From positions 32,001 through 96,000 of IMG/VR virus record IMGVR_UViG_3300032087_004763: 64,000 nucleotides of DNA; one strand, 5' to 3'. Made by a program: the position numbers and the translations under genes. This stretch comes from a virus. Under the pieces are notes generated by a model. The model was not told the origin of the DNA. It did no database searches and saw only the letters and a list, made by a program, of their open reading frames with translations. Positions 2,928 to 12,696 of this stretch are shown here, piece by piece (position 1 is the first letter of the stretch; every line of letters starts with the position of its first letter).

Positions 2928-2957
2928 ATTATACCATAAATTCATCCAAGAGTACAC
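2928..2957 (-). promoter_or_regulatory. Early-type sigma70 promoter
   Basis: GTGTACT-N17-TATAAT, same pattern as six other sites. Confidence 0.75.
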
Positions 2958-3969
2958 CGTTATTTGTTGGTTCACCTTGACGTTGTTCCCATCCGGATAC
3001 CCAACCAGAATTATTCGTAATCGTCGATGGTACGTGGTCGAATGTATCATCAGACCGTGGTACATAATTCTGACCAAACCGAACAAAGTCACACATCACG
3101 TCCTCATTATCTCTTGGTGCTCCACCCATGCGTTCACATAGAATATCCATGAACTCGTCAGTGGTATAACCACTTGATAGTATCTTCATACACCGGACTG
3201 CGTTGTTACCAAAATATCCATGAGACATATCATCAACTAGATCCTTGTGATAGTCTCCTAGATCATACGAAAATGCAGCATAGACAAAGTTAAATCGTTT
3301 GTGACCTTGTTCTATATTGTACTCATTCAAATAATCTACGACTTCTTTGTGAGTCTTTTTCTGACCTGTGTGTAGCCAATCAATCAGACGATCAAGTAGA
3401 CTCGGTAACTCCTCGGTCAGATAATCGATGACACTGACTCCCTTACGTGGTGAAGGTGGTTGGTTACCAATCGACGTGAACGTAGCGATCTTATTTTCTT
3501 TACGGTACTTGAGATCTGCAATCATTTGATCGATAGAATCCATAATACCCCATCGATAAACACAATTGTTTCGATATCCGTGATCGCGTGTGAAAGAAGC
3601 GCCAGAGCCTGTGGCTCGGTGTGACATATAAGCAAACAACCAGGTCTTGAGATCCCATTTATCTGTGATGTAACTATCTACTAGATCAACATGTTTTTGA
3701 CCAAGAGAGATATTCTTCAGTTGATGGTGTCTCTTTGGTGTGTCGCTTCGGTACTTGAGGTCTTGCAATACGTTCGAGAATCCTGCTGCATTTCTTGTAT
3801 AGCAATCATATATATCAATGTACTGCATCAAATCGTCATTTATTTGTCGATTAGATTCTTCTCCGACGTAAGGAATTTTACCCCAGTTACAATTTAGCTG
3901 CAGCCATTTTGCTCTGGGGTAATAGTAGTTTGTCAGAATGTCAATTGCTTCTTCGTTGATCCACTTCAT
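2929..3969 (-). CDS. Amino acid:DNA transferase-like protein (aGPT-pyrophosphorylase clade 1-like, HhH-glycosylase fold)
   Basis: Ordered motifs DDLMQYIDIYDCYTR, FVYAAFSYDLGDY, FGNNAVRC and DNEDVMCDFVRF resemble family consensus as recalled (DPIL..YxFxNVxR, FxAxQxxxDL, GPGA, DxExxLCExxKY); cluster context. Confidence 0.6.
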   Translation of the reverse strand: MKWINEEAIDILTNYYYPRAKWLQLNCNWGKIPYVGEESNRQINDDLMQYIDIYDCYTRNAAGFSNVLQDLKYRSDTPKRHHQLKNISLGQKHVDLVDSYITDKWDLKTWLFAYMSHRATGSGASFTRDHGYRNNCVYRWGIMDSIDQMIADLKYRKENKIATFTSIGNQPPSPRKGVSVIDYLTEELPSLLDRLIDWLHTGQKKTHKEVVDYLNEYNIEQGHKRFNFVYAAFSYDLGDYHKDLVDDMSHGYFGNNAVRCMKILSSGYTTDEFMDILCERMGGAPRDNEDVMCDFVRFGQNYVPRSDDTFDHVPSTITNNSGWVSGWEQRQGEPTNNGVLLDEFMV

Positions 3970-4568
3970 GATACCAATACAATTTTACAAATGTGCTCTA
4001 GTCGTTCAATGTGTTCATATGCCCTCCACGGAGTTTCATCAATAGCAACGACTCCATGACCCTTAATACCTACAATATCAAACTGAATTTTCCCTTTCGA
4101 ATCTAATTTAAGATTCTCGTGACAGGCATTACCAAGTTCGTTACTTGTAGGTGGAACATCAGGCGTGCTCTCGGCAACTCGAGTATACCTACCTAGCTCA
4201 GGAAAATAGTTGACGAGGTGGTGAAGATCTAATCCACGATGCATTGCAGCAACCGTATATGTCGGATGTAGATGTACTACAACACGCGTCTCTATATTGT
4301 GCGGTAGAGTCTTTTGTAATCCGAAATGTAATGGCAACTCGCCGCTCGGATAAAGGTTCGTGCTTATCTCCGTATACTCTAGTGCTTTACCTGTCTTACT
4401 ATCAATCTTCTTCCACATATTTGGCTGCAGATCAGGTTTGCGAATACCGCTAGGTGTAATCCAAAAATGACCTCGGTCATGATGAGCGATACTAATATTA
4501 CCATCACGAACAGTGATGAAGTTTGCATCGTAGGCACGACGCATTAGGTCTGAACAAGTCTCTAACAT
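3966..4568 (-). CDS. Class II aldolase/adducin-family metalloenzyme
   Basis: GNIS, ITPSG, PSGELPLH, VVHLHP, GHGVVA, IERLEH. Confidence 0.9.
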   Translation of the reverse strand: MLETCSDLMRRAYDANFITVRDGNISIAHHDRGHFWITPSGIRKPDLQPNMWKKIDSKTGKALEYTEISTNLYPSGELPLHFGLQKTLPHNIETRVVVHLHPTYTVAAMHRGLDLHHLVNYFPELGRYTRVAESTPDVPPTSNELGNACHENLKLDSKGKIQFDIVGIKGHGVVAIDETPWRAYEHIERLEHICKIVLVS

Positions 4569-5449
4569 TTCTTTTTCCAGTCTCTGTATGAGTCTATCTC
4601 GTCGTAGATAGATTCGTTAATTAACTCTGGTTCCTTTCCGACGTTCCAGAACAAAATATCTCTTCCTGAGTTCTTAGGTATATACTTCCACACCTTACCG
4701 TCATACGTGTCGATGTTTGGAAATGGTGGGAGGTTATCTGTTTTCTCTGACGCAGTGAATGCAAGTGGTTCTGATATTGGGGTTGCGATACCAAGCTCAC
4801 CCGCTTTCATATTCCGTGACACACAAACAGATGTAAACTTAGCGTTTGGCCAAGCAATCTGAAGCGCCCGTGTGAGCACGCCCGTGGACGTGGCAGTATA
4901 TACTTCGTTAGGCTCAGTTATAGTTGATGCAGTTTTCACAATACCTGCAGTCACCTTCTCATGCTTTAAACCAAGCGGAACGAAGAAAGCATTTGGCCTC
5001 TCGTCGGCCCACTTCTTTGCAAGTAGATTCAGATTCGGCATTGCAGCAATACGGTGGAATGAATAGTCACACCCTCGTTCAATACAGCAAGCCTGATGAT
5101 GTGATATCCTTCTTGACGAAGGCATGAACAGCATTACCTTCTTGTTATGTCGCTTTGCTACGTCAAGGAGCGAAACGCCAGCAAGACCAGTACGAGGCTG
5201 AACATAAACAATGGTATCGATACTATCAGGGAGCGAGGAAATGAGGCAGTCACCCCCGCGTACCTTAGACCCCACCAAGTAATCATCCCGGACAACCCTA
5301 ATGCCATCATGAGTGGTAACAACAGGTTCACCATAAGGGTCGGTCCAATCTCGAGCAAGACTAAAGTAGTAATCTCTTGCATCATCTGTTGTGTATAAGG
5401 GTCCGATGTCTTTGTTGATTCCGTCAATAACATGATTATTATGCGCCAA
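4562..5449 (-). CDS. PLP-dependent enzyme, fold type II
   Basis: VVRDD...GSKVR (PLP lysine), ATSTG phosphate loop, YDGKVW, LFWNVG. Confidence 0.8.
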   Translation of the reverse strand: MAHNNHVIDGINKDIGPLYTTDDARDYYFSLARDWTDPYGEPVVTTHDGIRVVRDDYLVGSKVRGGDCLISSLPDSIDTIVYVQPRTGLAGVSLLDVAKRHNKKVMLFMPSSRRISHHQACCIERGCDYSFHRIAAMPNLNLLAKKWADERPNAFFVPLGLKHEKVTAGIVKTASTITEPNEVYTATSTGVLTRALQIAWPNAKFTSVCVSRNMKAGELGIATPISEPLAFTASEKTDNLPPFPNIDTYDGKVWKYIPKNSGRDILFWNVGKEPELINESIYDEIDSYRDWKKKC

Positions 5450-6401
5450 GTGGTGATACTCCCCAATCGTTTCTGCGATAGAACGGAGGAGCTATGTGAA
5501 AACTAGATCCAAATTCCATGTATGTCTTAGCGTATTTCTCGCCGTCCATAGTGTACCATTCTTTCGGAGGTTGAATAACTTTATCAGTACGTTTATATAG
5601 CTCATTGATAAACATGTCCGTGAGCTCACGCCTTTCCGTGAATGTACCATAGAATGGAGTACCTTTATAGAAGCCAGACTTTGGTATCTTGCGATCTTCA
5701 TATTCAACTGGAACAGGTGCACAATACCATACATCCTCTGCTAAATCATTTCCTTGTTCTACATACTTTGCCACAAGGTCTTCAATGCCAGGATTATCTC
5801 GTCGTAGTAAATGATGCCTAATGTCAATAGAACCAAAGCATAGACTGACTCGACCTTTCGGAGTAGTTCCTCTGAGGAAGGATCCAAGTCCTGCTTTGAT
5901 TGCTCCAAAGAGAGTTTTACCATCGTTACGATACACCCGATCAGTGCTGCTACTAAAAGCGATGGTATGAGAATCTCCCACCATGATATCGTCATAATTT
6001 AAATCCTGCTGTTTTAGTGATGAAATGTGTTTACACCTTTGAGATACCTGATCACACCATTGTTCAGTTATCCCTTCATAAGTTGTCTTTGCCCCAATCC
6101 TCTTCTTGAGCATTGCGCCATAGTCTGGCATGTCCCAGTCTAACGATACAACATGCGAGTGAGAACAGATTAGATTAATTCTATCGTAAATCTCTTTCGT
6201 AGCACCACCAAATAGATTCAGTGTACCACCAAAGTTTGCACCATGATCGATATAGACTATTCCTGATCTAAGAATATTCGGATCGCATTTGCTGTCAATT
6301 GATGCGTCTAACTGACGACACCACGTTTTAGCCCAACCTAAAACATGAGATTTTGGATTGACAGGAATATTTGATATAGGGTTAGTTACAACGCTCAACA
6401 T
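5439..6401 (-). CDS. Two-domain protein with C-terminal SGNH/GDSL-like acylhydrolase/acyltransferase domain
   Basis: Block I VGDSH, block II G, block III FGSIDIR, block V SFHI. Confidence 0.55.
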   Translation of the reverse strand: MLSVVTNPISNIPVNPKSHVLGWAKTWCRQLDASIDSKCDPNILRSGIVYIDHGANFGGTLNLFGGATKEIYDRINLICSHSHVVSLDWDMPDYGAMLKKRIGAKTTYEGITEQWCDQVSQRCKHISSLKQQDLNYDDIMVGDSHTIAFSSSTDRVYRNDGKTLFGAIKAGLGSFLRGTTPKGRVSLCFGSIDIRHHLLRRDNPGIEDLVAKYVEQGNDLAEDVWYCAPVPVEYEDRKIPKSGFYKGTPFYGTFTERRELTDMFINELYKRTDKVIQPPKEWYTMDGEKYAKTYMEFGSSFHIAPPFYRRNDWGVSPLGA

Positions 6402-6759
6402 AATCTTTCAACTCGCTTAGCATCTGTCTCTCATACTCTGAATCATTGAGTTGCCGGTTCAGAGGAGAAGGATGCGGCATTTTAAAACTATTAAATCCAA
6501 GTCTCTTCAATGTGTTATACACCTGAGATCCAAGTGCTACTATTATATCACGATCTGATAGCATTTGTACAATCATTTTTTTATCAATAGATTTATACTT
6601 GAAGTCCCATTCAGGATCATCTGATAGATTCATGAATGAGAAGATCGGAAGGTTAATCTGTTCAGCCCAGGAGTATAACCTACGAAGTGCGGGACCTTGT
6701 TTGGTCCCGCTTACTTTCGAAGGATTTAATCCTACTATGACAATGTTTTTTCGCTCCAT
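6382..6759 (-). CDS. Minimal uracil-DNA glycosylase-superfamily protein
   Basis: IVIVGLNPS, IVALG, MPHPSPLN. Confidence 0.8.
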   Translation of the reverse strand: MERKNIVIVGLNPSKVSGTKQGPALRRLYSWAEQINLPIFSFMNLSDDPEWDFKYKSIDKKMIVQMLSDRDIIVALGSQVYNTLKRLGFNSFKMPHPSPLNRQLNDSEYERQMLSELKDYVERCN

Positions 6760-6965
6760 GCGTGGTTCACTTCTAATTGTTTCACTCTTTCAGTTAGTTG
6801 GTCTATCTGCATCACTAAGTCCTCAATTGATGTTTGGGATTGTTTTTGTTTTTCTCCTTTTTTAAAGATCGTGTCTAATACCGACGAATTCGAACTGTAT
6901 ACTAGCTTCATTGAACATCTCCTGAGTTTTACGCCATGAGTCTTGCCACGAGTCTGGTATCTCAA
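6735..6965 (-). CDS. Possible small coiled-coil hypothetical protein (start uncertain)
   Basis: Fills gap between cd and the UDG-like gene; overlaps cd. Confidence 0.3.
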   Translation of the reverse strand: MRYQTRGKTHGVKLRRCSMKLVYSSNSSVLDTIFKKGEKQKQSQTSIEDLVMQIDQLTERVKQLEVNHAWSEKTLS

Positions 6966-7317
6966 TGTCTTTCATTACAACTCTTCTGACACCGACTTGA
7001 ATAATACCCTTTGCGCATTCTGAACATACCGGTAATCCCGTCACATACATCGTTGCACCATCAAGAGATACACCGTTGTATGTTGCATTGAATATAACAT
7101 TCATTTCGGCGTGGACTACCAGCTCATATTTCCTCTGACGATTGTAGTATCTGCTGTGAGAATCATCAATCCCACGAGGAAATCCGTTGTAGCCTTGGGC
7201 CAGAACCTGGCCTTTGGCTCCGATCGCCACGGCACCAACTTTCCGTGACGGGTCTTTCGACCAGCTAGCTACTTCTTCTGCTAGCTTTAAAAATCTTTGA
7301 TCCCACTTATACGACAA
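6862..7317 (-). CDS. cd: dCMP deaminase
   Basis: SKDPS, GYNGFPRG, HAEMN, PVCSEC; likely TTG start (MSYKWDQRF). Confidence 0.95.
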   Translation of the reverse strand: MSYKWDQRFLKLAEEVASWSKDPSRKVGAVAIGAKGQVLAQGYNGFPRGIDDSHSRYYNRQRKYELVVHAEMNVIFNATYNGVSLDGATMYVTGLPVCSECAKGIIQVGVRRVVMKDIEIPDSWQDSWRKTQEMFNEASIQFEFVGIRHDL

Positions 7318-7984
7318 GGTGGAAATGCCTCTCATAAACATGGAGGTTTTGTACCTGCCATATAATATTACCTGGACGAAGATCCTGACAAGTTGATGCA
7401 TTGACATCAGTTGTAAGTCTATCTTGCACAAATCGTTGCCAAGCATAATCGTTCTTATAGCCAAAGACTACGTCATTAGAACGCATTTGTACTACGGCAT
7501 GGAGATAATCGTCTCGGATGTAATAAGTGACGGAGTTTGTGCAGATAAAATCATTCTTACCATTTTCTGAGTATTCGATCCAGATGGATGGCCGAGTGTA
7601 GATCATAGAAGCTCTTCGGCCATCAGAACTATTTATCAATTCTTGTAACACCATCTCGTACTGTCCATGATATAATGGATCAAAAATAAGATGACCATAG
7701 TTAGAGTTGATATTACCCCACTCGTCTGAACAATATTGCCATGCTTGTGGAGGTTCACGTGTACCACCATAGATGTCATGGATATTTGTAGATCCGCTCA
7801 GGTACCACTCAATCTCTGCATTCACATACTCTTGATTCACTTCACCAAAGATAGCAGGTTCGTCAGCTTGAAATGATGCACCGATCATCTCAATTGTTTT
7901 CTGACCGGTCCTATCAATAGTAAACTCTTCTGCAGCCAACTTATCAATAAAGTCGGCACGGATATCATTGACCTTCAGCATCAC
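7307..7984 (-). CDS. gp42: dCMP hydroxymethylase-like thymidylate-synthase homologue
   Basis: INSNYG, DFICTN, MRSNDVVFGYKNDYAWQ; Asp at the substrate-specificity position as in T4 gp42 (D179), not Asn. Confidence 0.88.
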   Translation of the reverse strand: MMLKVNDIRADFIDKLAAEEFTIDRTGQKTIEMIGASFQADEPAIFGEVNQEYVNAEIEWYLSGSTNIHDIYGGTREPPQAWQYCSDEWGNINSNYGHLIFDPLYHGQYEMVLQELINSSDGRRASMIYTRPSIWIEYSENGKNDFICTNSVTYYIRDDYLHAVVQMRSNDVVFGYKNDYAWQRFVQDRLTTDVNASTCQDLRPGNIIWQVQNLHVYERHFHLVV

Positions 7985-8333
7985 GGATCTCTTTCACAGT
8001 TGATGGTTTTTTACGATTGAGGAAGTCACGATCTGGATCTTGGCCGTCGATCTTACCACGAGAGTAGGCGACAGCAAACGAGGAATAGTTGATCAGATCT
8101 TTGAGTGAATCCTCGATTGATTCAAAGTTTGGTTTGTAGCTTGGATCATTCTCCATAGCTTCAAGTACTGACCACAGACGGATTGTCTTAGTATTGATCA
8201 GTTCCATAATTGACAAAATGCCACGCGGATAGTAATCTGCTTGGCGGATACGAGAGTTTTCATTCTGATAGTCTCGAGACTTTTTGTCTTGGATCTCTGC
8301 ACATTCTTGCAGGACTTTAATTGATTCACGCAT
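7965..8333 (-). CDS. Nucleotide-modification-associated domain 1 (DUF1599-like) protein
   Basis: KKSRDY, KTIRL, ESIEDSLKDLINYS. Confidence 0.7.
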   Translation of the reverse strand: MRESIKVLQECAEIQDKKSRDYQNENSRIRQADYYPRGILSIMELINTKTIRLWSVLEAMENDPSYKPNFESIEDSLKDLINYSSFAVAYSRGKIDGQDPDRDFLNRKKPSTVKEIRDAEGQ

Positions 8334-8337
8334 ATAA

Positions 8338-8808
8338 TTATCCAATTTGATTACAGAAAGGAAGTTCATTATTAACACATTCAGCAAGATACTGGTGTGT
8401 TAATCGTTTTTCGGTATTTTGATGAGTTGTCACTTCTTCAGTGATTTCATTACCTGTTAAAGGACATTTGAATTTAATAATTTCTCTAGGACAGCAAACT
8501 GCATATACATCGATCTTAGATTCATCAATTAAATCCATTACGTCCATAATACGTTTATTAGTCATATCTCCATAAGGACCACGACCTTGTTGATATGTAT
8601 TAATACGACCAGCAAATCCTAATTTACCGCCGGCTTTGCCAATTTTCATAAGTTTATTATCAACGTACATAAAATAAACAATATCACCAAGAGCAATAAT
8701 GTCTTTACGACGTAGATTTTCTTTACGGACAAAAGGCATTTGATCTCCGTCGATTTTAAAATATCCTAGATACTGTGATTTTTCACTAATCATTTGTTCA
8801 ATGTTCAT
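8338..8808 (-). CDS. denA: GIY-YIG nuclease, T4 endonuclease II (DenA)-like
   Basis: IVYFMYVDNKLMKIGKA, RINTY, SKIDVYA, E...PFCNQ parallel EndoII motifs; AT-rich. Confidence 0.6.
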   Translation of the reverse strand: MNIEQMISEKSQYLGYFKIDGDQMPFVRKENLRRKDIIALGDIVYFMYVDNKLMKIGKAGGKLGFAGRINTYQQGRGPYGDMTNKRIMDVMDLIDESKIDVYAVCCPREIIKFKCPLTGNEITEEVTTHQNTEKRLTHQYLAECVNNELPFCNQIG

Positions 8809-8834
8809 AATATGTTCTCCTCAATCTTTGTACC

Positions 8835-8863
8835 ATTATACCAAGATTTCTGGAAATGTACAT
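8835..8863 (-). promoter_or_regulatory. Early-type promoter for the modification operon
   Basis: TGTACA-N16-TATAAT followed by GAGGAG SD. Confidence 0.75.
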
Positions 8864-8869
8864 CTTTTT

Positions 8870-9814
8870 TTACATATTTTTGTAAACAAATTCAAGTGCA
8901 CGATCTGCTTCTTTATCAAGTGGGCGGTTAGAGTACCAGTTACCGGTCTCGGCATCAAGCTGCTTACACATCTGTGAGATCTCTGCAGCAGTGATAGGGT
9001 ATTGCTTTCTTACGGCGTTTGCAGCCACAGAAACCATAATTCGATACATTGTATGATACCAGCCAGTACCAGTAATCGAACGATATTCCGCTTCAAGGTG
9101 TTTCGGAAAGAACGGACAGTCATGATATGAGTTCCAACTATAGTTAGTATTGTCTAGCTTAGACTTACGATGTTCAATGATTTGCTTTTGAACTTCTTCA
9201 GGCAGCCGATCAAAGAAGTTGTTTCCATCACGTTTCTCAGTATACGGAAACTCTTTGATCAGGGCATCAGGGTCAATAGGTGATATGCCACCACCATTAA
9301 AAATAAAATTGTCAGCACCAGCGTACCGACCAGGGACATAATACATTCTTGAAAGATCGCGTGTTTGTCGATCTGCGATGTGATCCAATTTTGTGTTAAG
9401 AGCATACCAGAAGGCTTTGATTTCATCTTTTCCCACTCTTCGCTCAAGTGGAAAGACAAGCCTAAACTTAGGACTATCCGGTGTGCTGCTTGCAGTACTA
9501 TAGCAAAGATAGTACCAATCACCAACCAACTCATCAAGCTCACTCTTTAGATCTCCTTTAAATTCGTGGTCATCAACATCGACTGCACACCAACGTCCCC
9601 AGTCGACAACATTATCATTTGCTCTTGTTTTATTTATAACATAGGTCGCCGGCGAAATGAGTTGTGCATCTTTCTTCGACGCACGATCCACCTTCGCCAG
9701 GTCATATAGTAGCTTTTCAAATTCGGCGAAGGATTTGAAATCCATCCGCTTGTGCGTTTTGTTATCAAAGATACTTTTGAATAAAGTGAGGGAAGTACCC
9801 GTGGTTTCCGTCAT
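8870..9814 (-). CDS. AEP-superfamily primase-like protein
   Basis: LISPA, AVDVDD, YSTASS, KFRLVFPL, DLSRMYYVP, helical C-terminal domain; likely start MTETTG. Confidence 0.7.
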   Translation of the reverse strand: MTETTGTSLTLFKSIFDNKTHKRMDFKSFAEFEKLLYDLAKVDRASKKDAQLISPATYVINKTRANDNVVDWGRWCAVDVDDHEFKGDLKSELDELVGDWYYLCYSTASSTPDSPKFRLVFPLERRVGKDEIKAFWYALNTKLDHIADRQTRDLSRMYYVPGRYAGADNFIFNGGGISPIDPDALIKEFPYTEKRDGNNFFDRLPEEVQKQIIEHRKSKLDNTNYSWNSYHDCPFFPKHLEAEYRSITGTGWYHTMYRIMVSVAANAVRKQYPITAAEISQMCKQLDAETGNWYSNRPLDKEADRALEFVYKNM

Positions 9815-10199
9815 GGCTCGGTGCCTTCCATTCGAGTGGTTTGATGAGGTCTGGTAATCCGAGTGGATTTGGTCGTTCGGGCTTGACGCCAACTTTTTTC
9901 GCCATGTTTGCATTATGTACTTCATCCCAAGCTTTATGAGAGTTGATACCGAAGGCATCCAATGTGCCTAGGGCAACGACGATAATATCGATCAGACCGT
10001 CAACCACCTCTTCTGGGTCTTGGTCGTGATAGATCGCCTTCAATGTTTCTTTATATTCTTCGTTGATAAAATCCATACGAAAGTTAAGAAACGATTTCAA
10101 TGCTTCTTTATCGCCTTCTTCAATTTTAGTTCTTACCCATTCATGTACGCCATACTTTGCATGCATGTCATGAATATCTTTTACCATGTCATTTGACAT
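9765..10199 (-). CDS. All-alpha NTP pyrophosphohydrolase (MazG/dUTPase-dCTPase-like)
   Basis: FINEEYKE, EVVDGLIDI, EVHNANMAK, DLIKP. Confidence 0.85.
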   Translation of the reverse strand: MSNDMVKDIHDMHAKYGVHEWVRTKIEEGDKEALKSFLNFRMDFINEEYKETLKAIYHDQDPEEVVDGLIDIIVVALGTLDAFGINSHKAWDEVHNANMAKKVGVKPERPNPLGLPDLIKPLEWKAPSHDGNHGYFPHFIQKYL

Positions 10200-10254: not shown

Positions 10255-12696
10255 TTAAATAAAAAATTCTTCAAGGGTAGCCTGCTTCTCCGCTTCCCAA
10301 CCGATTGCATTCAGAATAAAATTCAACGGCTCGATGAACGTCTTCTCGAACTGCTTGTCGTAGTCTACATATTTATGCAGCTGAAGTTCTGGAGGTAAGT
10401 AGTCCGGGAACGTGATGACATTCTCACGGATGTGGTTAGGCATCTTCAGATAGCAGAATTTGGCTTTATCCCCAGCTTGAATAAGTTCATATTTCTTCTG
10501 AAGGGACTTGTCCTTGATATAATGATTGTAGAGTAACGCACCGCGCACATGTATCGGCGTACCCTTCGTGTAGATTGATTTTCGATCTGACCATTTGACA
10601 ACCTCCGAGACACCACGTGGGAAGGATACCTCTTCTGGAGAAAGCGAGTTAAATCTTGATTTGAATTCAGCAATCGCCTGTTGCGTTTCCTCCTCAGTGG
10701 ACGAGACAATAACCTTAAAGAGTTTCTTGAGCGCATCCCTGCAAACAGCCGGGGTAGACGATTTGATGGCTTCGATCCCCATGATCTTGAGTTTGGGTTC
10801 CGCATACTGAACTCCTTCCGAGTTGTGTACGTTAAGTATGTATCTTTTCTTTGCCGTCCAGATACCACGATCGGCAATGACTTCGCGTGACATCTCCATA
10901 CGTTTCTTGTAGCAGTTCATGTTGTGGAAGAGTTCGTCGTACGCTTTCTCAAGGACTTTCTCGAAGTGGGTTTTGCACGCCTCGTCGAGGAACTTGACCG
11001 GGTCAGGCGGATTGAAATGCTGAACAAAGCTGCCAAAATCAACGTAAAGAGAATCAGTGTCAATTGCGATAACATAGTCTTTGTCCGTCTTCAGTAGTTT
11101 GTTCATCTCAGCATTGATTGCTGTCTCGGCCCACTGGATCACACGTTGACCCGTGAGTGTCACACCCTCTGCTAAGCGGAGATCAAAATATTTAAAGTAT
11201 ACGTTGCCAAGAGCACCATAGAGAGAGTTAAGAAGAATTTTGAGGGCCATCTGCCTGTTCTCAAGCTGATTAATCTCCTTCTCAAGAGCATATGTTTTTT
11301 CCTTTTCGTATTCTTGTTGAGCCGCAAGCATCATCTTTTTGATGCTCGTCCTTTCATCATAGTAGTCAATAATGATATTCGGAATCACACCTTCACGGTC
11401 TTTACGATAGAATGAACCATTTGCTGCACAGGTTGCGTCTTCTGATTGTCTATCAATCAATGTCTCGGTTGACATATTCCACTGTACAATGATGTTCGGG
11501 TACAGTGAATTTAAGTCAAACGATACTACCCAATCATGCAGTCCGACCTGAGGTTCTTTCACAAAGCCACCGGCAAAAGATTGCTTCTGTGCTGGTATGA
11601 CTTCGAGTGGTGGCACCTTCCTGAGTGACTGCAGCTTACGATAGATAATCGATTCCCATATTGCAGTCGTACCAAACGTGTCATTGTAATTGACACCACC
11701 TTTGTATGCCACTGTCATGGCAAGAGTAATCAGACCCATCTTGTCTTCAAGACGTTCGACCAACTGAACATCCTTCATGTTATAGTCGATGTATCTCTGA
11801 TAGTCATCCTTGTACAGATTACGAAGAGAACCAGATTCTTCGAAGCTGAGTTTCTTTTCACCAAGAACTACGGATGCAATGTGATCTAGCTTATAGGATT
11901 CCTGTGCACCGTACGAGTAACCAAACTTCTGGAACAGTTCTAGGTAGTCTAGCTGACTGATACCCTTGATATCGTATGTGTCTTCCTTGCGTTGACGACG
12001 TGTGACCTCACGATAATCGATCAGTCCCCACGGTGAATATTTATTCACGGCTTCTAGCCCAACGACCTTTGCCGTGCGATTAATTAGATACGGAACATCG
12101 AAGAATCGAATATTCCAGCCAGTGATTACATCAGGACTGTGAATCGGATTGTTCCAGTATTCCAGGAACTTTACTAGCAGGTCAAACTCGTTATCACATT
12201 TAATGAAGTGAACTGGTTGGATCAGGGCTTTCTCTGTATCAAAGTCGCCATAGCCCCAGACACGGTAGTAGTCGTTCTTGTTTGACTTGACCGTGATCGA
12301 TAGGACTTCTTGGTCTGCCTTTGATGGTTCAGGGAATCCATCCTCGTAGGCAGTTTCGATATCGATTGTCAGGACGTTGATTGTATCCCGGTCAAATGTG
12401 ATATCACGTGGAAATTTCTCTGTGATATATTGATGGATATAATTCTTTGCCCCATAGATTTTGTAGCCAGCCACATCACGATACATCTCGACGTGGTTCT
12501 TGGCATCTTTCATGGAGTCAAATTGGATTGAGTCTACGTCTGCTCCATCAATAGAAGTCCATCCCGTAGGTTTACGGGATGTGACATAGAGAGTTGGTTT
12601 GAATTTTTCTTTACGTTGGACACGCTCACCATTGTCGGCGTATCCTCGGTAAAGTATTGAGTTTGCATAACGATTAACTGATGTATAAAAGGGCAT
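10255..12696 (-). CDS. gp43: Family B DNA polymerase
   Basis: DIET exonuclease, [26 protein letters not shown]. Confidence 0.98.

What the first reader, a model, noticed from the sequence alone, without database searches (positions are those of the whole stretch)
2929..8863. Candidate new cytosine hypermodification pathway: dCMP-type hydroxymethylase coupled to amino acid:DNA transferase and PLP machinery
Seen: one tightly overlapping operon from the early promoter at 8835-8863 encodes DenA-like nuclease, NMAD1, TS homologue, dCMP deaminase, UDG-like, SGNH-like, PLP fold-II, class II aldolase and an aGPT-PPase1-like protein. The TS homologue reads RSNDVVFGYKND, with Asp at the position that makes T4 gp42 dCMP-specific (dUMP enzymes have Asn). 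Established: amino acid:DNA transferases plus PLP enzymes are characterised in THYMIDINE hypermodification (5hmU to 5-PmdU to amino-acid adducts, e.g. phages M6 and ViI), whereas T4-type hmC is glycosylated. Inference: this phage appends an amino-acid- or amine-derived group to hmC rather than a sugar. Alternatively it reaches hmU by deaminating hm-dCMP, which would also be an unusual route.
Basis: partly seen in the sequence, partly recalled or inferred. Interest (0 to 1): 0.88.

Follow-up and report, generated by a model that had tools for sequence, protein, structure and literature searches.

The report
Predicted non-sugar hydroxymethylcytosine DNA hypermodification operon
A marine T4-like phage carries, where T4 keeps its DNA sugar-transferase gene, a conserved enzyme set related to the machinery that decorates thymine with amino acids, but paired with a cytosine-specific hydroxymethylase, so it probably makes a DNA base that has not yet been described.

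Summary
Three calls are weak: DenA-like, NMAD1 and SGNH-like.

The thymidylate synthase (TS) homologue is a true T4 gp42 orthologue, with an active site almost identical to T4's. It has Asp at both diagnostic positions, which marks a 5-hydroxymethyl-dCMP synthase.

The 346-aa protein has no Pfam hit. A confident model (pLDDT 93) is closest, among 48,161 solved chains, to PaMx11 gp46, a solved amino acid:DNA transferase. It keeps a Glu-x3-Cys motif.

The PLP protein is a homologue of M6 gp52, the decarboxylase that acts on DNA-linked amino acids.

The 320-aa GDSH-motif protein is fused to the 346-aa family in seven independent lineages. In cultured Aeromonas phage 44RR2.8t it is fused to a related helical domain. 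This mirrors the kinase plus helical-domain build of 5-hmdU DNA kinases, but no such kinase is present.

The module occupies the beta-glucosyltransferase slot between gene 42 and uvsX. In 45 related and 7 distant phage contexts it travels with Asp-type TS homologues. A phage ThyX argues against a hydroxymethyluracil route.

Best reading: post-replicative, kinase-independent, amino-acid-derived hypermodification of hmC. The product is unproven. This is a new variant of a known kind.

The parts
8835..8862 (-). Sigma-70-like promoter candidate (TGTACA-16-TGgTATAAT) ahead of the operon
   Evidence: 10 of 12 matches with an extended -10, followed by GAGGAG and ATG. The same TGTACA...TATAAT pattern recurs at 10251-10223 and 6571-6542. 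This is a consensus match only.
8338..8808 (-). Small endonuclease-like protein (156 aa), possibly GIY-YIG or DenA-like
   Evidence: phrog_1111 'endonuclease' E=4.8e-6. No Pfam hit and no tblastn hit in cultured phages. Weak assignment.
7965..8333 (-). NMAD1-like small helical protein
   Evidence: PF07659 (NMAD1) E=0.045, below the cut-off. phrog_18404 and phrog_1485 E~1e-12. Conserved beside the hydroxymethylase in relatives. Likely start at 8333.
7307..7981 (-). dCMP hydroxymethylase, orthologue of T4 gp42 (5hm-dCMP synthase type)
   Evidence: PDB 1b49 E=1.4e-70. MRSNDVVFGYKNDYAWQ here against MRSNDVVFGFRNDYAWQ in T4. Cys in DFICTN. 52-55% identity to T4-like gp42. The Asp/Asp signature is read against PMC13326640.
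6862..7341 (-). dCMP deaminase
   Evidence: PF00383 E=9e-22; phrog_174 E=9e-45. Start inferred at about 7341.
6382..6759 (-). Mini UDG-superfamily protein (125 aa) with GLNPS and HPSPLN motifs
   Evidence: PF03167 E=1e-6, above the cut-off. Sequence. Present next to the deaminase in only some relatives.
5439..6401 (-). p13881 protein (320 aa): conserved partner enzyme with an invariant GDSH motif, SGNH-like
   Evidence: phrog_13881 E=9e-92. Invariant H19, N62, G65, G66, R101, G142-D-S-H145, D160, G190, D193, H197, E233, R237, R257, H302 across 16 diverse members. Fused N-terminally to the x346 family in 7 representative clusters and to a HMUDK_hel-like domain in Aeromonas phage 44RR2.8t ORF233c. 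Weak Lipase_GDSL leads.
4562..5449 (-). PLP fold-type-II-like enzyme, homologue of the DNA-acting decarboxylase M6 gp52
   Evidence: phrog_7093 E=1.8e-32. hhalign to M6 gp52: probability 92%, E=5e-7, with K62 aligned to the proposed PLP lysine K36 and a shared C-terminal PFP..YD.K.WK...FWN(V/I)G motif (PMC8989533). Homologues in distant contexts carry PF00291.
3966..4568 (-). Class II aldolase/adducin-family enzyme, an optional accessory
   Evidence: PF00596 E=4e-25. Nearest NCBIfam models are MtnB and 3-oxo-tetronate-4-P decarboxylase, all far below their cut-offs. Adjacent to the module in 4 of 45 related loci and elsewhere on the locus in 2 more (L022, L039).
2929..3969 (-). x346: HhH-glycosylase-fold enzyme of the amino acid:DNA transferase / HMUDK_hel superfamily, with conserved E289-x3-C293
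9765..10199 (-). MazG/PRA-PH-type all-alpha NTP pyrophosphohydrolase, candidate dCTPase (context gene)
   Evidence: PF01503 E=1.2e-9. Conserved upstream in relatives and present in distant module contexts. The dCTPase role is inferred by analogy with T4 gp56.

Best explanation
The operon is a two-stage cytosine hypermodification pathway.

Stage 1 works on nucleotides and follows T4 logic. A MazG-type NTP pyrophosphohydrolase, perhaps with the NMAD1-like protein, lowers dCTP. The gp42 orthologue converts dCMP to 5-hydroxymethyl-dCMP. The dCMP deaminase, together with the phage ThyX just outside the window, keeps dTTP supplied. Replication therefore inserts hmC in place of C.

Stage 2 works on DNA and replaces T4's glucosylation. 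The 346-aa HhH enzyme (x346) flips out hmC and uses its conserved Cys293 and Glu289 for covalent catalysis at C6, as amino acid:DNA transferases do. It works together with the GDSH-motif protein (p13881), which takes the place of the P-loop 5-hmdU DNA kinase. The hydroxymethyl group is activated or substituted and an amino-acid-type group is attached. The gp52-like PLP enzyme then decarboxylates or otherwise trims that group on the DNA. The aldolase-family enzyme is an optional extra tailoring or donor-supply step.

Shown here: the gene identities, the folds, the fusions, the synteny and the co-occurrence. Inferred: that DNA is the substrate, that cytosine is the target, the order of steps, the role of p13881 and the nature of the product.
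For: 1. The TS homologue is a gp42 orthologue with catalytic Cys, Asp at the ThyA-N177 position and Asp at the ThyA-D169 position. The signature is read against PMC13326640.

3. The PLP protein is homologous to M6 gp52, with the PLP lysine aligned.

4. Seven p13881+x346 fusions exist, plus the 44RR2.8t fusion of p13881 with a HMUDK_hel-like domain. This parallels the kinase+HMUDK_hel fusion in SP10 gp186 and the adjacent gp54/gp55 pair in M6.

5. The module lies between gene 42 and uvsX, where a T4-type phage (Tequatrovirus teqskov) has beta-gt.

6. 45 viral loci keep hm, p13881, PLP and x346 together despite rearrangements. Seven distant contexts all pair the module with TS homologues that have Asp at both positions: L067, L068, L069, L070, L076, L077 and 44RR2.8t.

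7. ThyX is present. No 5-HMUDK, AADT, HMUDK_hel, alpha-gt or beta-gt Pfam hit was found in the 142-kb record.

8. Aeromonas phages 44RR, 31 and 25 have genes 42 and 56 but no glucosyltransferase (PMC2993671).
Against: - There are no chemical data; the product is not known.
- x346 does not reach any Pfam threshold, and hhalign to clade-2 AADTs finds nothing. The link to HMUDK_hel has only 13% probability.
- I could not verify residue by residue that C293 superimposes on gp46 C247.
- M6 gp55, a HMUDK_hel protein, was dispensable in vitro (PMC8989533), so the family nearest to x346 has no proven catalytic role.
- A dCMP deaminase or dUTPase/DCD-like gene accompanies the module in most contexts, which would also fit an hmU route.
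- The record is only 84% complete, so absent genes may lie in the missing part.
Confidence: 0.6

Rival explanations
1. Hydroxymethyluracil route. The dCMP deaminase converts 5hm-dCMP to 5hm-dUMP. hmU enters the DNA, and the x346, p13881 and PLP proteins then perform a thymidine-type hypermodification.
For: A dCMP deaminase sits directly after the hydroxymethylase here and in many relatives. All characterised members of the superfamily act on hmU-derived bases (PMC8989533). A UDG-like gene lies in the operon.
Against: The phage encodes ThyX, so it makes canonical dTMP. No 5-HMUDK kinase is present. All seven distant contexts checked by motif, and the three close-clade sequences aligned (window, L018, L031), have an Asp-type (dCMP) TS homologue, whereas the M6 T-hypermodification cluster checked here has an Asn-type enzyme. 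T4 itself has a deaminase only for dTMP supply. The module sits in the beta-gt slot.
Confidence: 0.12
2. The target is hmC in DNA but the chemistry differs. The p13881-x346 pair transfers or removes an acyl or other non-amino-acid group on the hydroxymethyl, for example an ester. The PLP and aldolase enzymes only make the small-molecule donor rather than acting on DNA.
For: p13881 has Ser-His hydrolase/acyltransferase-like motifs. Aeromonas phages carry the fused enzyme without the PLP homologue. The aldolase is dispensable. L068 lacks a PLP homologue.
Against: The PLP protein is specifically related to the DNA-acting decarboxylase M6 gp52 rather than to metabolic PLP enzymes: it has no PDB or NCBIfam hit. 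Relatives of this PLP domain are found with ParB-type 'DNA modification methylase' genes. The PLP gene is adjacent to x346 in nearly all loci.
Confidence: 0.15
3. This is not a DNA modification. x346 is a nucleoside or nucleotide glycosylase like the queuosine salvage enzyme DUF2419/Qng1, or a DNA repair glycosylase, and the neighbouring genes belong to nucleotide salvage.
Against: The conserved Glu-x3-Cys-acid motif is shared with HMUDK_hel, not with glycosylases. BFVD neighbours are all aGPT-Pplase-superfamily proteins. The linkage to a hydroxymethylase and a gp52-like PLP enzyme across unrelated phages is strict.
Confidence: 0.05

Closest known systems
Thymidine hypermodification pathways of phages M6, ViI, PaMx11, PhiW-14 and SP10 (5-HMUDK kinase, aGPT-Pplase2/AADT, PLP decarboxylase; PMC8989533, PMC11472151)
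   Same: A TS-family hydroxymethylase supplies a 5-hydroxymethylpyrimidine. An HhH-fold enzyme of the same superfamily carries a conserved Glu/Cys pair. A homologous fold-II PLP enzyme is present. The genes are clustered near the replication genes, and a catalytic domain can be fused to the helical domain.
   Different: The hydroxymethylase here is the dCMP (Asp) type, not the dUMP (Asn) type. There is no P-loop DNA kinase; a GDSH-motif protein takes its place. Only one HhH protein is present, and it forms a clade of its own that no Pfam model recognises. The phage also makes dTMP with ThyX.
T4 hmC glucosylation (gp42, gp56, gp1, alpha-gt and beta-gt)
   Same: An orthologous gp42, a replication-module position between DNA polymerase and uvsX-41, a dCMP deaminase and an NTP pyrophosphohydrolase. 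The tailoring genes occupy the beta-gt slot.
   Different: No alpha-gt or beta-gt homologue was detected. The tailoring enzymes are of HhH/Cys, GDSH and PLP types, not glycosyltransferases.
5-hydroxymethylcytosine carbamoyltransferase, which makes 5-carbamoyloxymethylcytosine (MetaGPA, PMC8670742)
   Same: A non-sugar group is placed on the hydroxyl of hmC in phage DNA. The system was found in environmental viromes next to TS-family hydroxymethylases and deaminases.
   Different: That system uses a single carbamoyltransferase. The enzyme families are unrelated, and there is no PLP or HhH component.
CmoA/CmoX/CmoY 5-carboxymethylcytosine-glycine amide system of Synechococcus phage S-B43 (PMC12783734)
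   Same: An amino acid ends up linked to C5 of cytosine in phage DNA.
   Different: That system is driven by a Cx-SAM-dependent methyltransferase homologue, is sequence-specific, and uses an ATP-dependent amide ligase. It has no hydroxymethylase and no shared enzymes.
5-hydroxycytosine arabinosylation in RB69 and DLP3 (PMC13326640)
   Same: T4-like phages once grouped as 'gene 42 but no glucosyltransferase' turned out to carry a new cytosine modification.
   Different: Those TS homologues carry Asn at the ThyA-D169 position and make 5-hydroxy-dCMP. The one here has Asp, as in T4. Tailoring there is by arabinosyltransferases.

Membership tests
T4 gp42-type dCMP hydroxymethylase (5hm-dCMP synthase) | Thymidylate synthase fold and close sequence similarity to T4 gp42 | tested here: met
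   PF00303 E=2e-14. PDB 1b49 (T4 dCH) E=1.4e-70 over residues 5-224.
T4 gp42-type dCMP hydroxymethylase (5hm-dCMP synthase) | Catalytic Cys, Asp at the ThyA-N177 position (dCMP specificity) and an acidic residue at the ThyA-L143 position | tested here: met
   DFICTN and GYKND align to T4 DFMCTN and GFRND. Criteria from PMC13326640.
T4 gp42-type dCMP hydroxymethylase (5hm-dCMP synthase) | Asp, not Asn, at the ThyA-D169 position, which separates 5hm synthases from 5-hydroxy-dCMP synthases | tested here: met
   RSND as in T4. The two PDB entries titled only 'Thymidylate synthase' (9iqu, 9iqc) have RSQN at this position; I take them, unverified, to be 5-hydroxy-dCMP synthases. Criterion.
T4 gp42-type dCMP hydroxymethylase (5hm-dCMP synthase) | Enzymatic formation of 5hm-dCMP | not testable with these tools
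   Needs an enzyme assay or in vivo LC-MS.
Amino acid:DNA transferase (Pfam PF18724 ADDT, former aGPT-Pplase clade 2) | Match to the family profile | tested here: not met
   No hit for x346 at E<=10. 1 of 67 family members hits at E=0.001. hhalign against an 8-member AADT alignment finds nothing.
Amino acid:DNA transferase (Pfam PF18724 ADDT, former aGPT-Pplase clade 2) | Fold of PaMx11 gp46/PUGT (HhH-glycosylase-like) | tested here: met
Amino acid:DNA transferase (Pfam PF18724 ADDT, former aGPT-Pplase clade 2) | Catalytic Cys with a nearby Glu (gp46 E243/C247) | tested here: inconclusive
   E289 and C293 have the same spacing and are at least 90% conserved. They lie in the last long helix of the aligned core. 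Residue-level superposition was not available.
Amino acid:DNA transferase (Pfam PF18724 ADDT, former aGPT-Pplase clade 2) | Works downstream of a P-loop 5-hmdU DNA kinase | tested here: not met
   No PF18748 match in the 142-kb record and no kinase in the module in related loci.
HMUDK_hel (Pfam PF18723, former aGPT-Pplase clade 1) | Match to the family profile | tested here: inconclusive
   No Pfam hit. hhalign to a 7-member alignment gives E=0.0022, probability 13%, over 151 columns, aligning D236/D204, G254-N-N-A/G-P-G-A, E289-x3-C293-D/E-x3-C295-E and R297/K299. This is stronger than the clade-1 versus clade-2 signal from the same tool. Foldseek probability to Pplase1/HMUDK_hel proteins is 0.97-1.0 for the five best, and 0.47-0.82 for PhiW-14, Lucky3 and the Nodularia phage.
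HMUDK_hel (Pfam PF18723, former aGPT-Pplase clade 1) | Fused or adjacent to the P-loop kinase domain PF18748 | tested here: not met
   The partner here is p13881, not a kinase.
M6 gp52 / ViI gp226 PLP-dependent DNA-amino-acid decarboxylases (phrog_7093) | Sequence homology including the PLP-binding lysine | tested here: met
   phrog_7093 E=1.8e-32. hhalign 92%, E=5e-7, with K62 aligned to K36. The window protein itself has no PF00291 hit, but its homologues do.
M6 gp52 / ViI gp226 PLP-dependent DNA-amino-acid decarboxylases (phrog_7093) | Decarboxylation of an amino acid tethered to a DNA base | not testable with these tools
   Needs biochemistry.
SGNH/GDSL hydrolase-acyltransferase superfamily (for p13881) | Blocks I (GDS), II (G), III (GxND) and V (DxxH) in order | tested here: inconclusive
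   The family has invariant GDSH142-145, nearly invariant G161, GN(S)ID190-193 and invariant H302 in SVH(L/I)xP, but no block V Asp. 2 of 16 members hit PF00657 at E~0.02. The ESM lead scores 0.93. No PDB sequence hit.
Class II aldolase/adducin (PF00596) | Match to the family profile above the cut-off | tested here: met
   89.2 bits against a cut-off of 22.2. No NCBIfam equivalog is reached.
Uracil-DNA glycosylase superfamily (PF03167) | Match to the family profile and motif B HPSPL | tested here: met
   29.3 bits against a cut-off of 24.3. HPSPLN and GLNPS seen. Activity untested. The protein is unusually short at 125 aa.

The most novel reading that the evidence does not exclude
A kinase-independent route to a new natural DNA base. 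A Ser/His (GDSH) enzyme is paired or fused with a Cys-bearing HhH base-flipping enzyme. Together they convert the hmC of replicated phage DNA into an amino-acid adduct, which a DNA-acting PLP enzyme trims to an aminoalkyl-type cytosine. The system would be widespread in marine T4-like phages and in unrelated phages from gut and other environmental metagenomes. A simpler form (the fused enzyme alone) would operate in cultured Aeromonas phages 44RR2.8t and 31, whose DNA modification has been an open question since 2010.
Probability: 0.45. Interest if true: 0.9.

Novelty: new variant of a known kind. Interest (0 to 1): 0.78.

Why it matters
The known non-sugar hypermodifications built on a 5-hydroxymethylpyrimidine are almost all on thymine. 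On hmC, only sugars and a carbamoyl group are known. If this reading is right:

- The amino acid:DNA transferase and PLP chemistry extends to cytosine.
- A new activating enzyme replaces the DNA kinase.
- The group of T4-like phages with gene 42 but no glucosyltransferase gets an explanation.
- A very abundant set of 'hypothetical' marine virome genes gets a function. The 320-aa protein alone has 587 clusters at 90% identity.

Such bases change how phage DNA behaves toward restriction enzymes, CRISPR nucleases, sequencing and virome library preparation. The enzymes could also become tools for labelling hmC.

Tried and rejected
- Pfam, NCBIfam and PHROGs gave nothing for x346.
- Sequence searches of the PDB gave nothing for x346, p13881 or the PLP protein, either as single sequences or as profiles.
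- The first AlphaFold run, on a shallow 15-sequence alignment, gave pLDDT 53 and was discarded. A 67-sequence alignment built from the representative search fixed this.
- Foldseek against the PDB found nothing significant; AGOG appeared at TM 0.3-0.5. The first BFVD attempt failed for technical reasons.
- hhalign of the x346 family against clade-2 AADTs, and against single M6 proteins, gave no significant match.
- No DNA-level or x346 protein-level match was found in cultured phages, and none for the endonuclease.
- Own-genome searches for PF18724, PF18723, PF18748, PF08761, PF09198 and PF11440 were all negative. The record is 84% complete, so absence is not proof.
- Weak MGDG_synth and T4-Gluco-transf hits in single p13881-family members (E=8e-4 and 0.078) were treated as chance.
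- The Iyer et al. 2013 paper that defined aGPT-Pplase and NMAD domains is not held in the library, so I could not check whether it had already noted an hmC-linked clade.
- A T4 gp1-type dNMP kinase was not searched for.

Full report
**Setting.** The window is bases 32001-96000 of a 142-kb IMG/VR record of an uncultured T4-like phage, estimated 84% complete. The finding lies in the replication module, on the minus strand. The gene order is: family-B DNA polymerase (10255-12696), a MazG/PRA-PH NTP pyrophosphohydrolase (9765-10199), a conserved unknown gene, then the operon, then UvsX (1709-2740) and a gp41-type helicase (78-1463).

**Observation.** All nine ORFs are real, and most overlap their neighbours by 1-30 nt. 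A TGTACA-16-TGgTATAAT site with a GAGGAG ribosome-binding site precedes the first gene. Promoter-like sites as a class are no more frequent than in shuffled sequence.

- Firm identities: TS homologue, dCMP deaminase, UDG-superfamily protein and class II aldolase.
- Indirect identities: the PLP enzyme (phrog_7093) and the aGPT-Pplase-like protein (by structure).
- Weak identities: endonuclease (phrog_1111 E=5e-6), NMAD1 (PF07659 E=0.045) and the 'SGNH-like' label.

**The hydroxymethylase.** The protein is 52-55% identical to gp42 of T4-type phages and hits the T4 dCMP hydroxymethylase structure at E=1.4e-70. Its active-site strand is almost identical: MRSNDVVFGYKNDYAWQ here, MRSNDVVFGFRNDYAWQ in T4. 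The catalytic Cys sits in DFICTN.

A 2026 study showed that some 'gene 42' homologues (RB69, DLP3) are flavin-dependent 5-hydroxy-dCMP synthases. They are marked by Asn at the ThyA-D169 position, while Asp at the N177 position gives dCMP specificity (PMC13326640). The protein here has Asp at both positions, so it is the 5-hydroxymethyl type.

**The 346-aa protein (x346).** No profile library or PDB sequence search recognises it.

- It is conserved at 67-99% identity in 45 viral contigs.
- A profile search of 1.84 billion representative proteins found 132 clusters.
- With a 67-member alignment (A4), AlphaFold gave an all-helical model at pLDDT 93, pTM 0.91.
- Against predicted viral structures, the top hits are members of its own family (E~5e-15, TM 0.74-0.84), one of them annotated as carrying an amino acid:DNA transferase domain. 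They are followed by 'Pplase1' and '5-hmdU DNA kinase helical domain' proteins of phiRSL1, SP10 and PhiW-14.
- An ESM feature search pointed to the same two Pfam families.

Profile-profile comparison finds nothing against clade-2 transferases. It does align 151 columns with HMUDK_hel, the former aGPT-Pplase clade 1 (E=0.0022). That alignment places the family's most conserved residues (D236, G254, E289, C293-D294, R297) on the invariant D204, G-P-G-A, E-x3-C295-E296 and K299 of HMUDK_hel. With the same tool the two recognised clades barely detect each other, so the weak statistics are expected.

The Glu-x3-Cys spacing equals that of the catalytic E243/C247 of gp46. I could not obtain a residue-level superposition.

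I conclude that x346 is a new clade of this superfamily. A catalytic role for Cys293 is inferred.

**The PLP enzyme.** Its profile aligns with M6 gp52 at 92% probability (E=5e-7). K62 falls on K36, the proposed PLP lysine, and the two share a distinctive C-terminal motif. M6 gp52 and ViI gp226 decarboxylate amino acids already attached to DNA (PMC8989533). Homologues of this domain also occur inside or beside ParB-type 'DNA modification methylase' genes in Erythrobacter and Microcystis phages. That fits a DNA-directed role.

**The 320-aa protein (p13881).** It is very common in marine metagenomes: 587 clusters at 90% identity, all unnamed. Sixteen diverse members share an invariant GDSH motif. 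They also share motifs in the positions of SGNH blocks II, III and V, with His302 about 158 residues after Ser144.

The decisive fact is architectural. Seven representative clusters are p13881+x346 fusions. The 795-aa ORF233c of cultured Aeromonas phage 44RR2.8t is p13881 (E=2e-59) fused to a HMUDK_hel-like domain (E=7e-4). This mirrors the thymidine systems, where the P-loop 5-hmdU DNA kinase is fused to HMUDK_hel (SP10 gp186) or adjacent to it (M6 gp54/gp55). So p13881 occupies the kinase's place. No PF18748 kinase is present in the record.

**Cytosine or uracil?** Four lines favour hmC.

1. In a T4-type phage (Tequatrovirus teqskov) the order is polymerase, imm, gene 42, beta-glucosyltransferase, uvsX, 40, 41. 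Here the p13881-PLP-aldolase-x346 block sits exactly between gene 42 (with the deaminase and the UDG-like gene) and uvsX. No alpha-gt or beta-gt homologue was found.
2. Among the 45 related loci, those with enough flanking sequence keep the hydroxymethylase with p13881, PLP and x346, although the deaminase and the gene order move around.
3. The module also occurs in unrelated phages with pol III alpha, pol A, RecA/SNF2 or ERF backgrounds, one of them from a gut metagenome. There it again lies near a TS homologue, and each of the seven examined has Asp at both positions: GFCID, GLGND, GMTND, GFPYD, GWPYD, GYKND, and YRND in 44RR2.8t. The M6 enzyme, by contrast, has Asn.
4. The phage encodes ThyX just outside the window. 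It therefore makes ordinary dTMP, and the deaminase has the same job as in T4.

The hmU route through deamination of 5hm-dCMP remains possible, at about 0.12.

**Mechanism proposed.**

- Nucleotide stage, largely by homology to T4: dCTP is depleted by the MazG-type enzyme, gp42 makes 5hm-dCMP, and the deaminase plus ThyX make dTMP. A dNMP kinase was not looked for.
- DNA stage, inferred: x346 flips out hmC and adds Cys293 to C6. p13881 supplies activation of the hydroxymethyl group (for example O-acylation to create a leaving group) or performs the transfer itself. An amino acid adds to the exocyclic methylene. The gp52-like enzyme then decarboxylates it.
- From my own knowledge, not tested here: C5-methyltransferases can substitute the hydroxyl of hmC through the same covalent C6 intermediate without phosphorylation. 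That would make a kinase-free route chemically reasonable.
- The aldolase-family gene is adjacent in only 4 of 45 loci and elsewhere on the locus in 2 more, so it is an optional add-on.

**Comparison and novelty.** Searches of the held literature found no description of an amino-acid or PLP-type modification of hmC, nor of these gene families. Known cytosine cases are:

- glucosyl-hmC;
- arabinosyl-5-hydroxycytosine (PMC13326640);
- 5-carbamoyloxymethylcytosine (PMC8670742);
- glycans on TET-derived hmC;
- 5-carboxymethylcytosine-glycine amide (PMC12783734).

Petrov et al. noted in 2010 that Aeromonas phages 44RR, 31 and 25 have genes 42 and 56 but no glucosyltransferase (PMC2993671). The fused enzyme found here is a candidate explanation and offers a cultured test system.

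I rate this a new variant of a known kind. The logic is that of the thymidine pathways, moved to cytosine and with a different activating partner. The product is unknown, and nothing here is biochemical evidence.

Noticed in passing
window 6382-6759 (-): A 125-aa UDG-superfamily protein. Its motif A, GLNPS, resembles those of MUG and SMUG, and its motif B is HPSPLN. It is about half the usual size and lies next to the dCMP deaminase in only some relatives. It could be a glycosylase for U or hmU that arises by deamination of C or hmC, but this was not tested.
   Followed up: partly
L073:7001-9388 (Aeromonas phage 44RR2.8t ORF233c) and L073:5408-6931: This cultured T4-like Aeromonas phage carries a 795-aa fusion of the GDSH protein with a HMUDK_hel-like domain. 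A phage-encoded sodium:solute symporter homologue lies directly upstream. No homologue of the PLP enzyme was found in these phages.
   Followed up: partly
L071 (Erythrobacter phage vB_EliS_R6L gp1) and L072:5986-6696 (Microcystis phage Mae-JY30): Homologues of the operon's PLP-like protein (31-34% identity) are annotated 'DNA modification methylase'. They are fused to or adjacent to ParB/sulfiredoxin genes, which suggests a wider family of DNA-directed PLP-fold enzymes.
   Followed up: no
L077:8001-9176 and L077:9158-10144: In another T4-like metagenomic phage the x346 homologue is followed by a weakly related paralogue (profile E=1.5e-6). This recalls the paired clade-1 and clade-2 proteins of the thymidine systems. 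A small APS-kinase/AAA_33-like gene lies after uvsX (L077:13679-14101).
   Followed up: no
window 8870-9958 (-): A conserved protein with no Pfam hit (362-aa ORF; the likely true start gives about 290 aa) lies between the MazG-like gene and the operon. It is present in most relatives and is a strong match in L077 (phmmer E=1e-139). Function unknown.
   Followed up: no
window 10251-10223, 8862-8835, 6571-6542 (-): The same promoter-like pattern, TGTACA-N16-18-TATAAT, occurs three times on the coding strand. One copy is inside the UDG-like gene, upstream of the p13881-PLP-x346 block. It may be this phage's early or middle promoter type.
   Followed up: no
G000:C1:31210-31779 (just before the window start): A ThyX gene lies immediately downstream of the helicase end of this gene block.
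   Followed up: partly
L069:1-4359: A distant phage that carries the module encodes a DNA polymerase III alpha subunit interrupted by an intein (Pfam Intein_splicing hit in the precomputed annotation).
   Followed up: no
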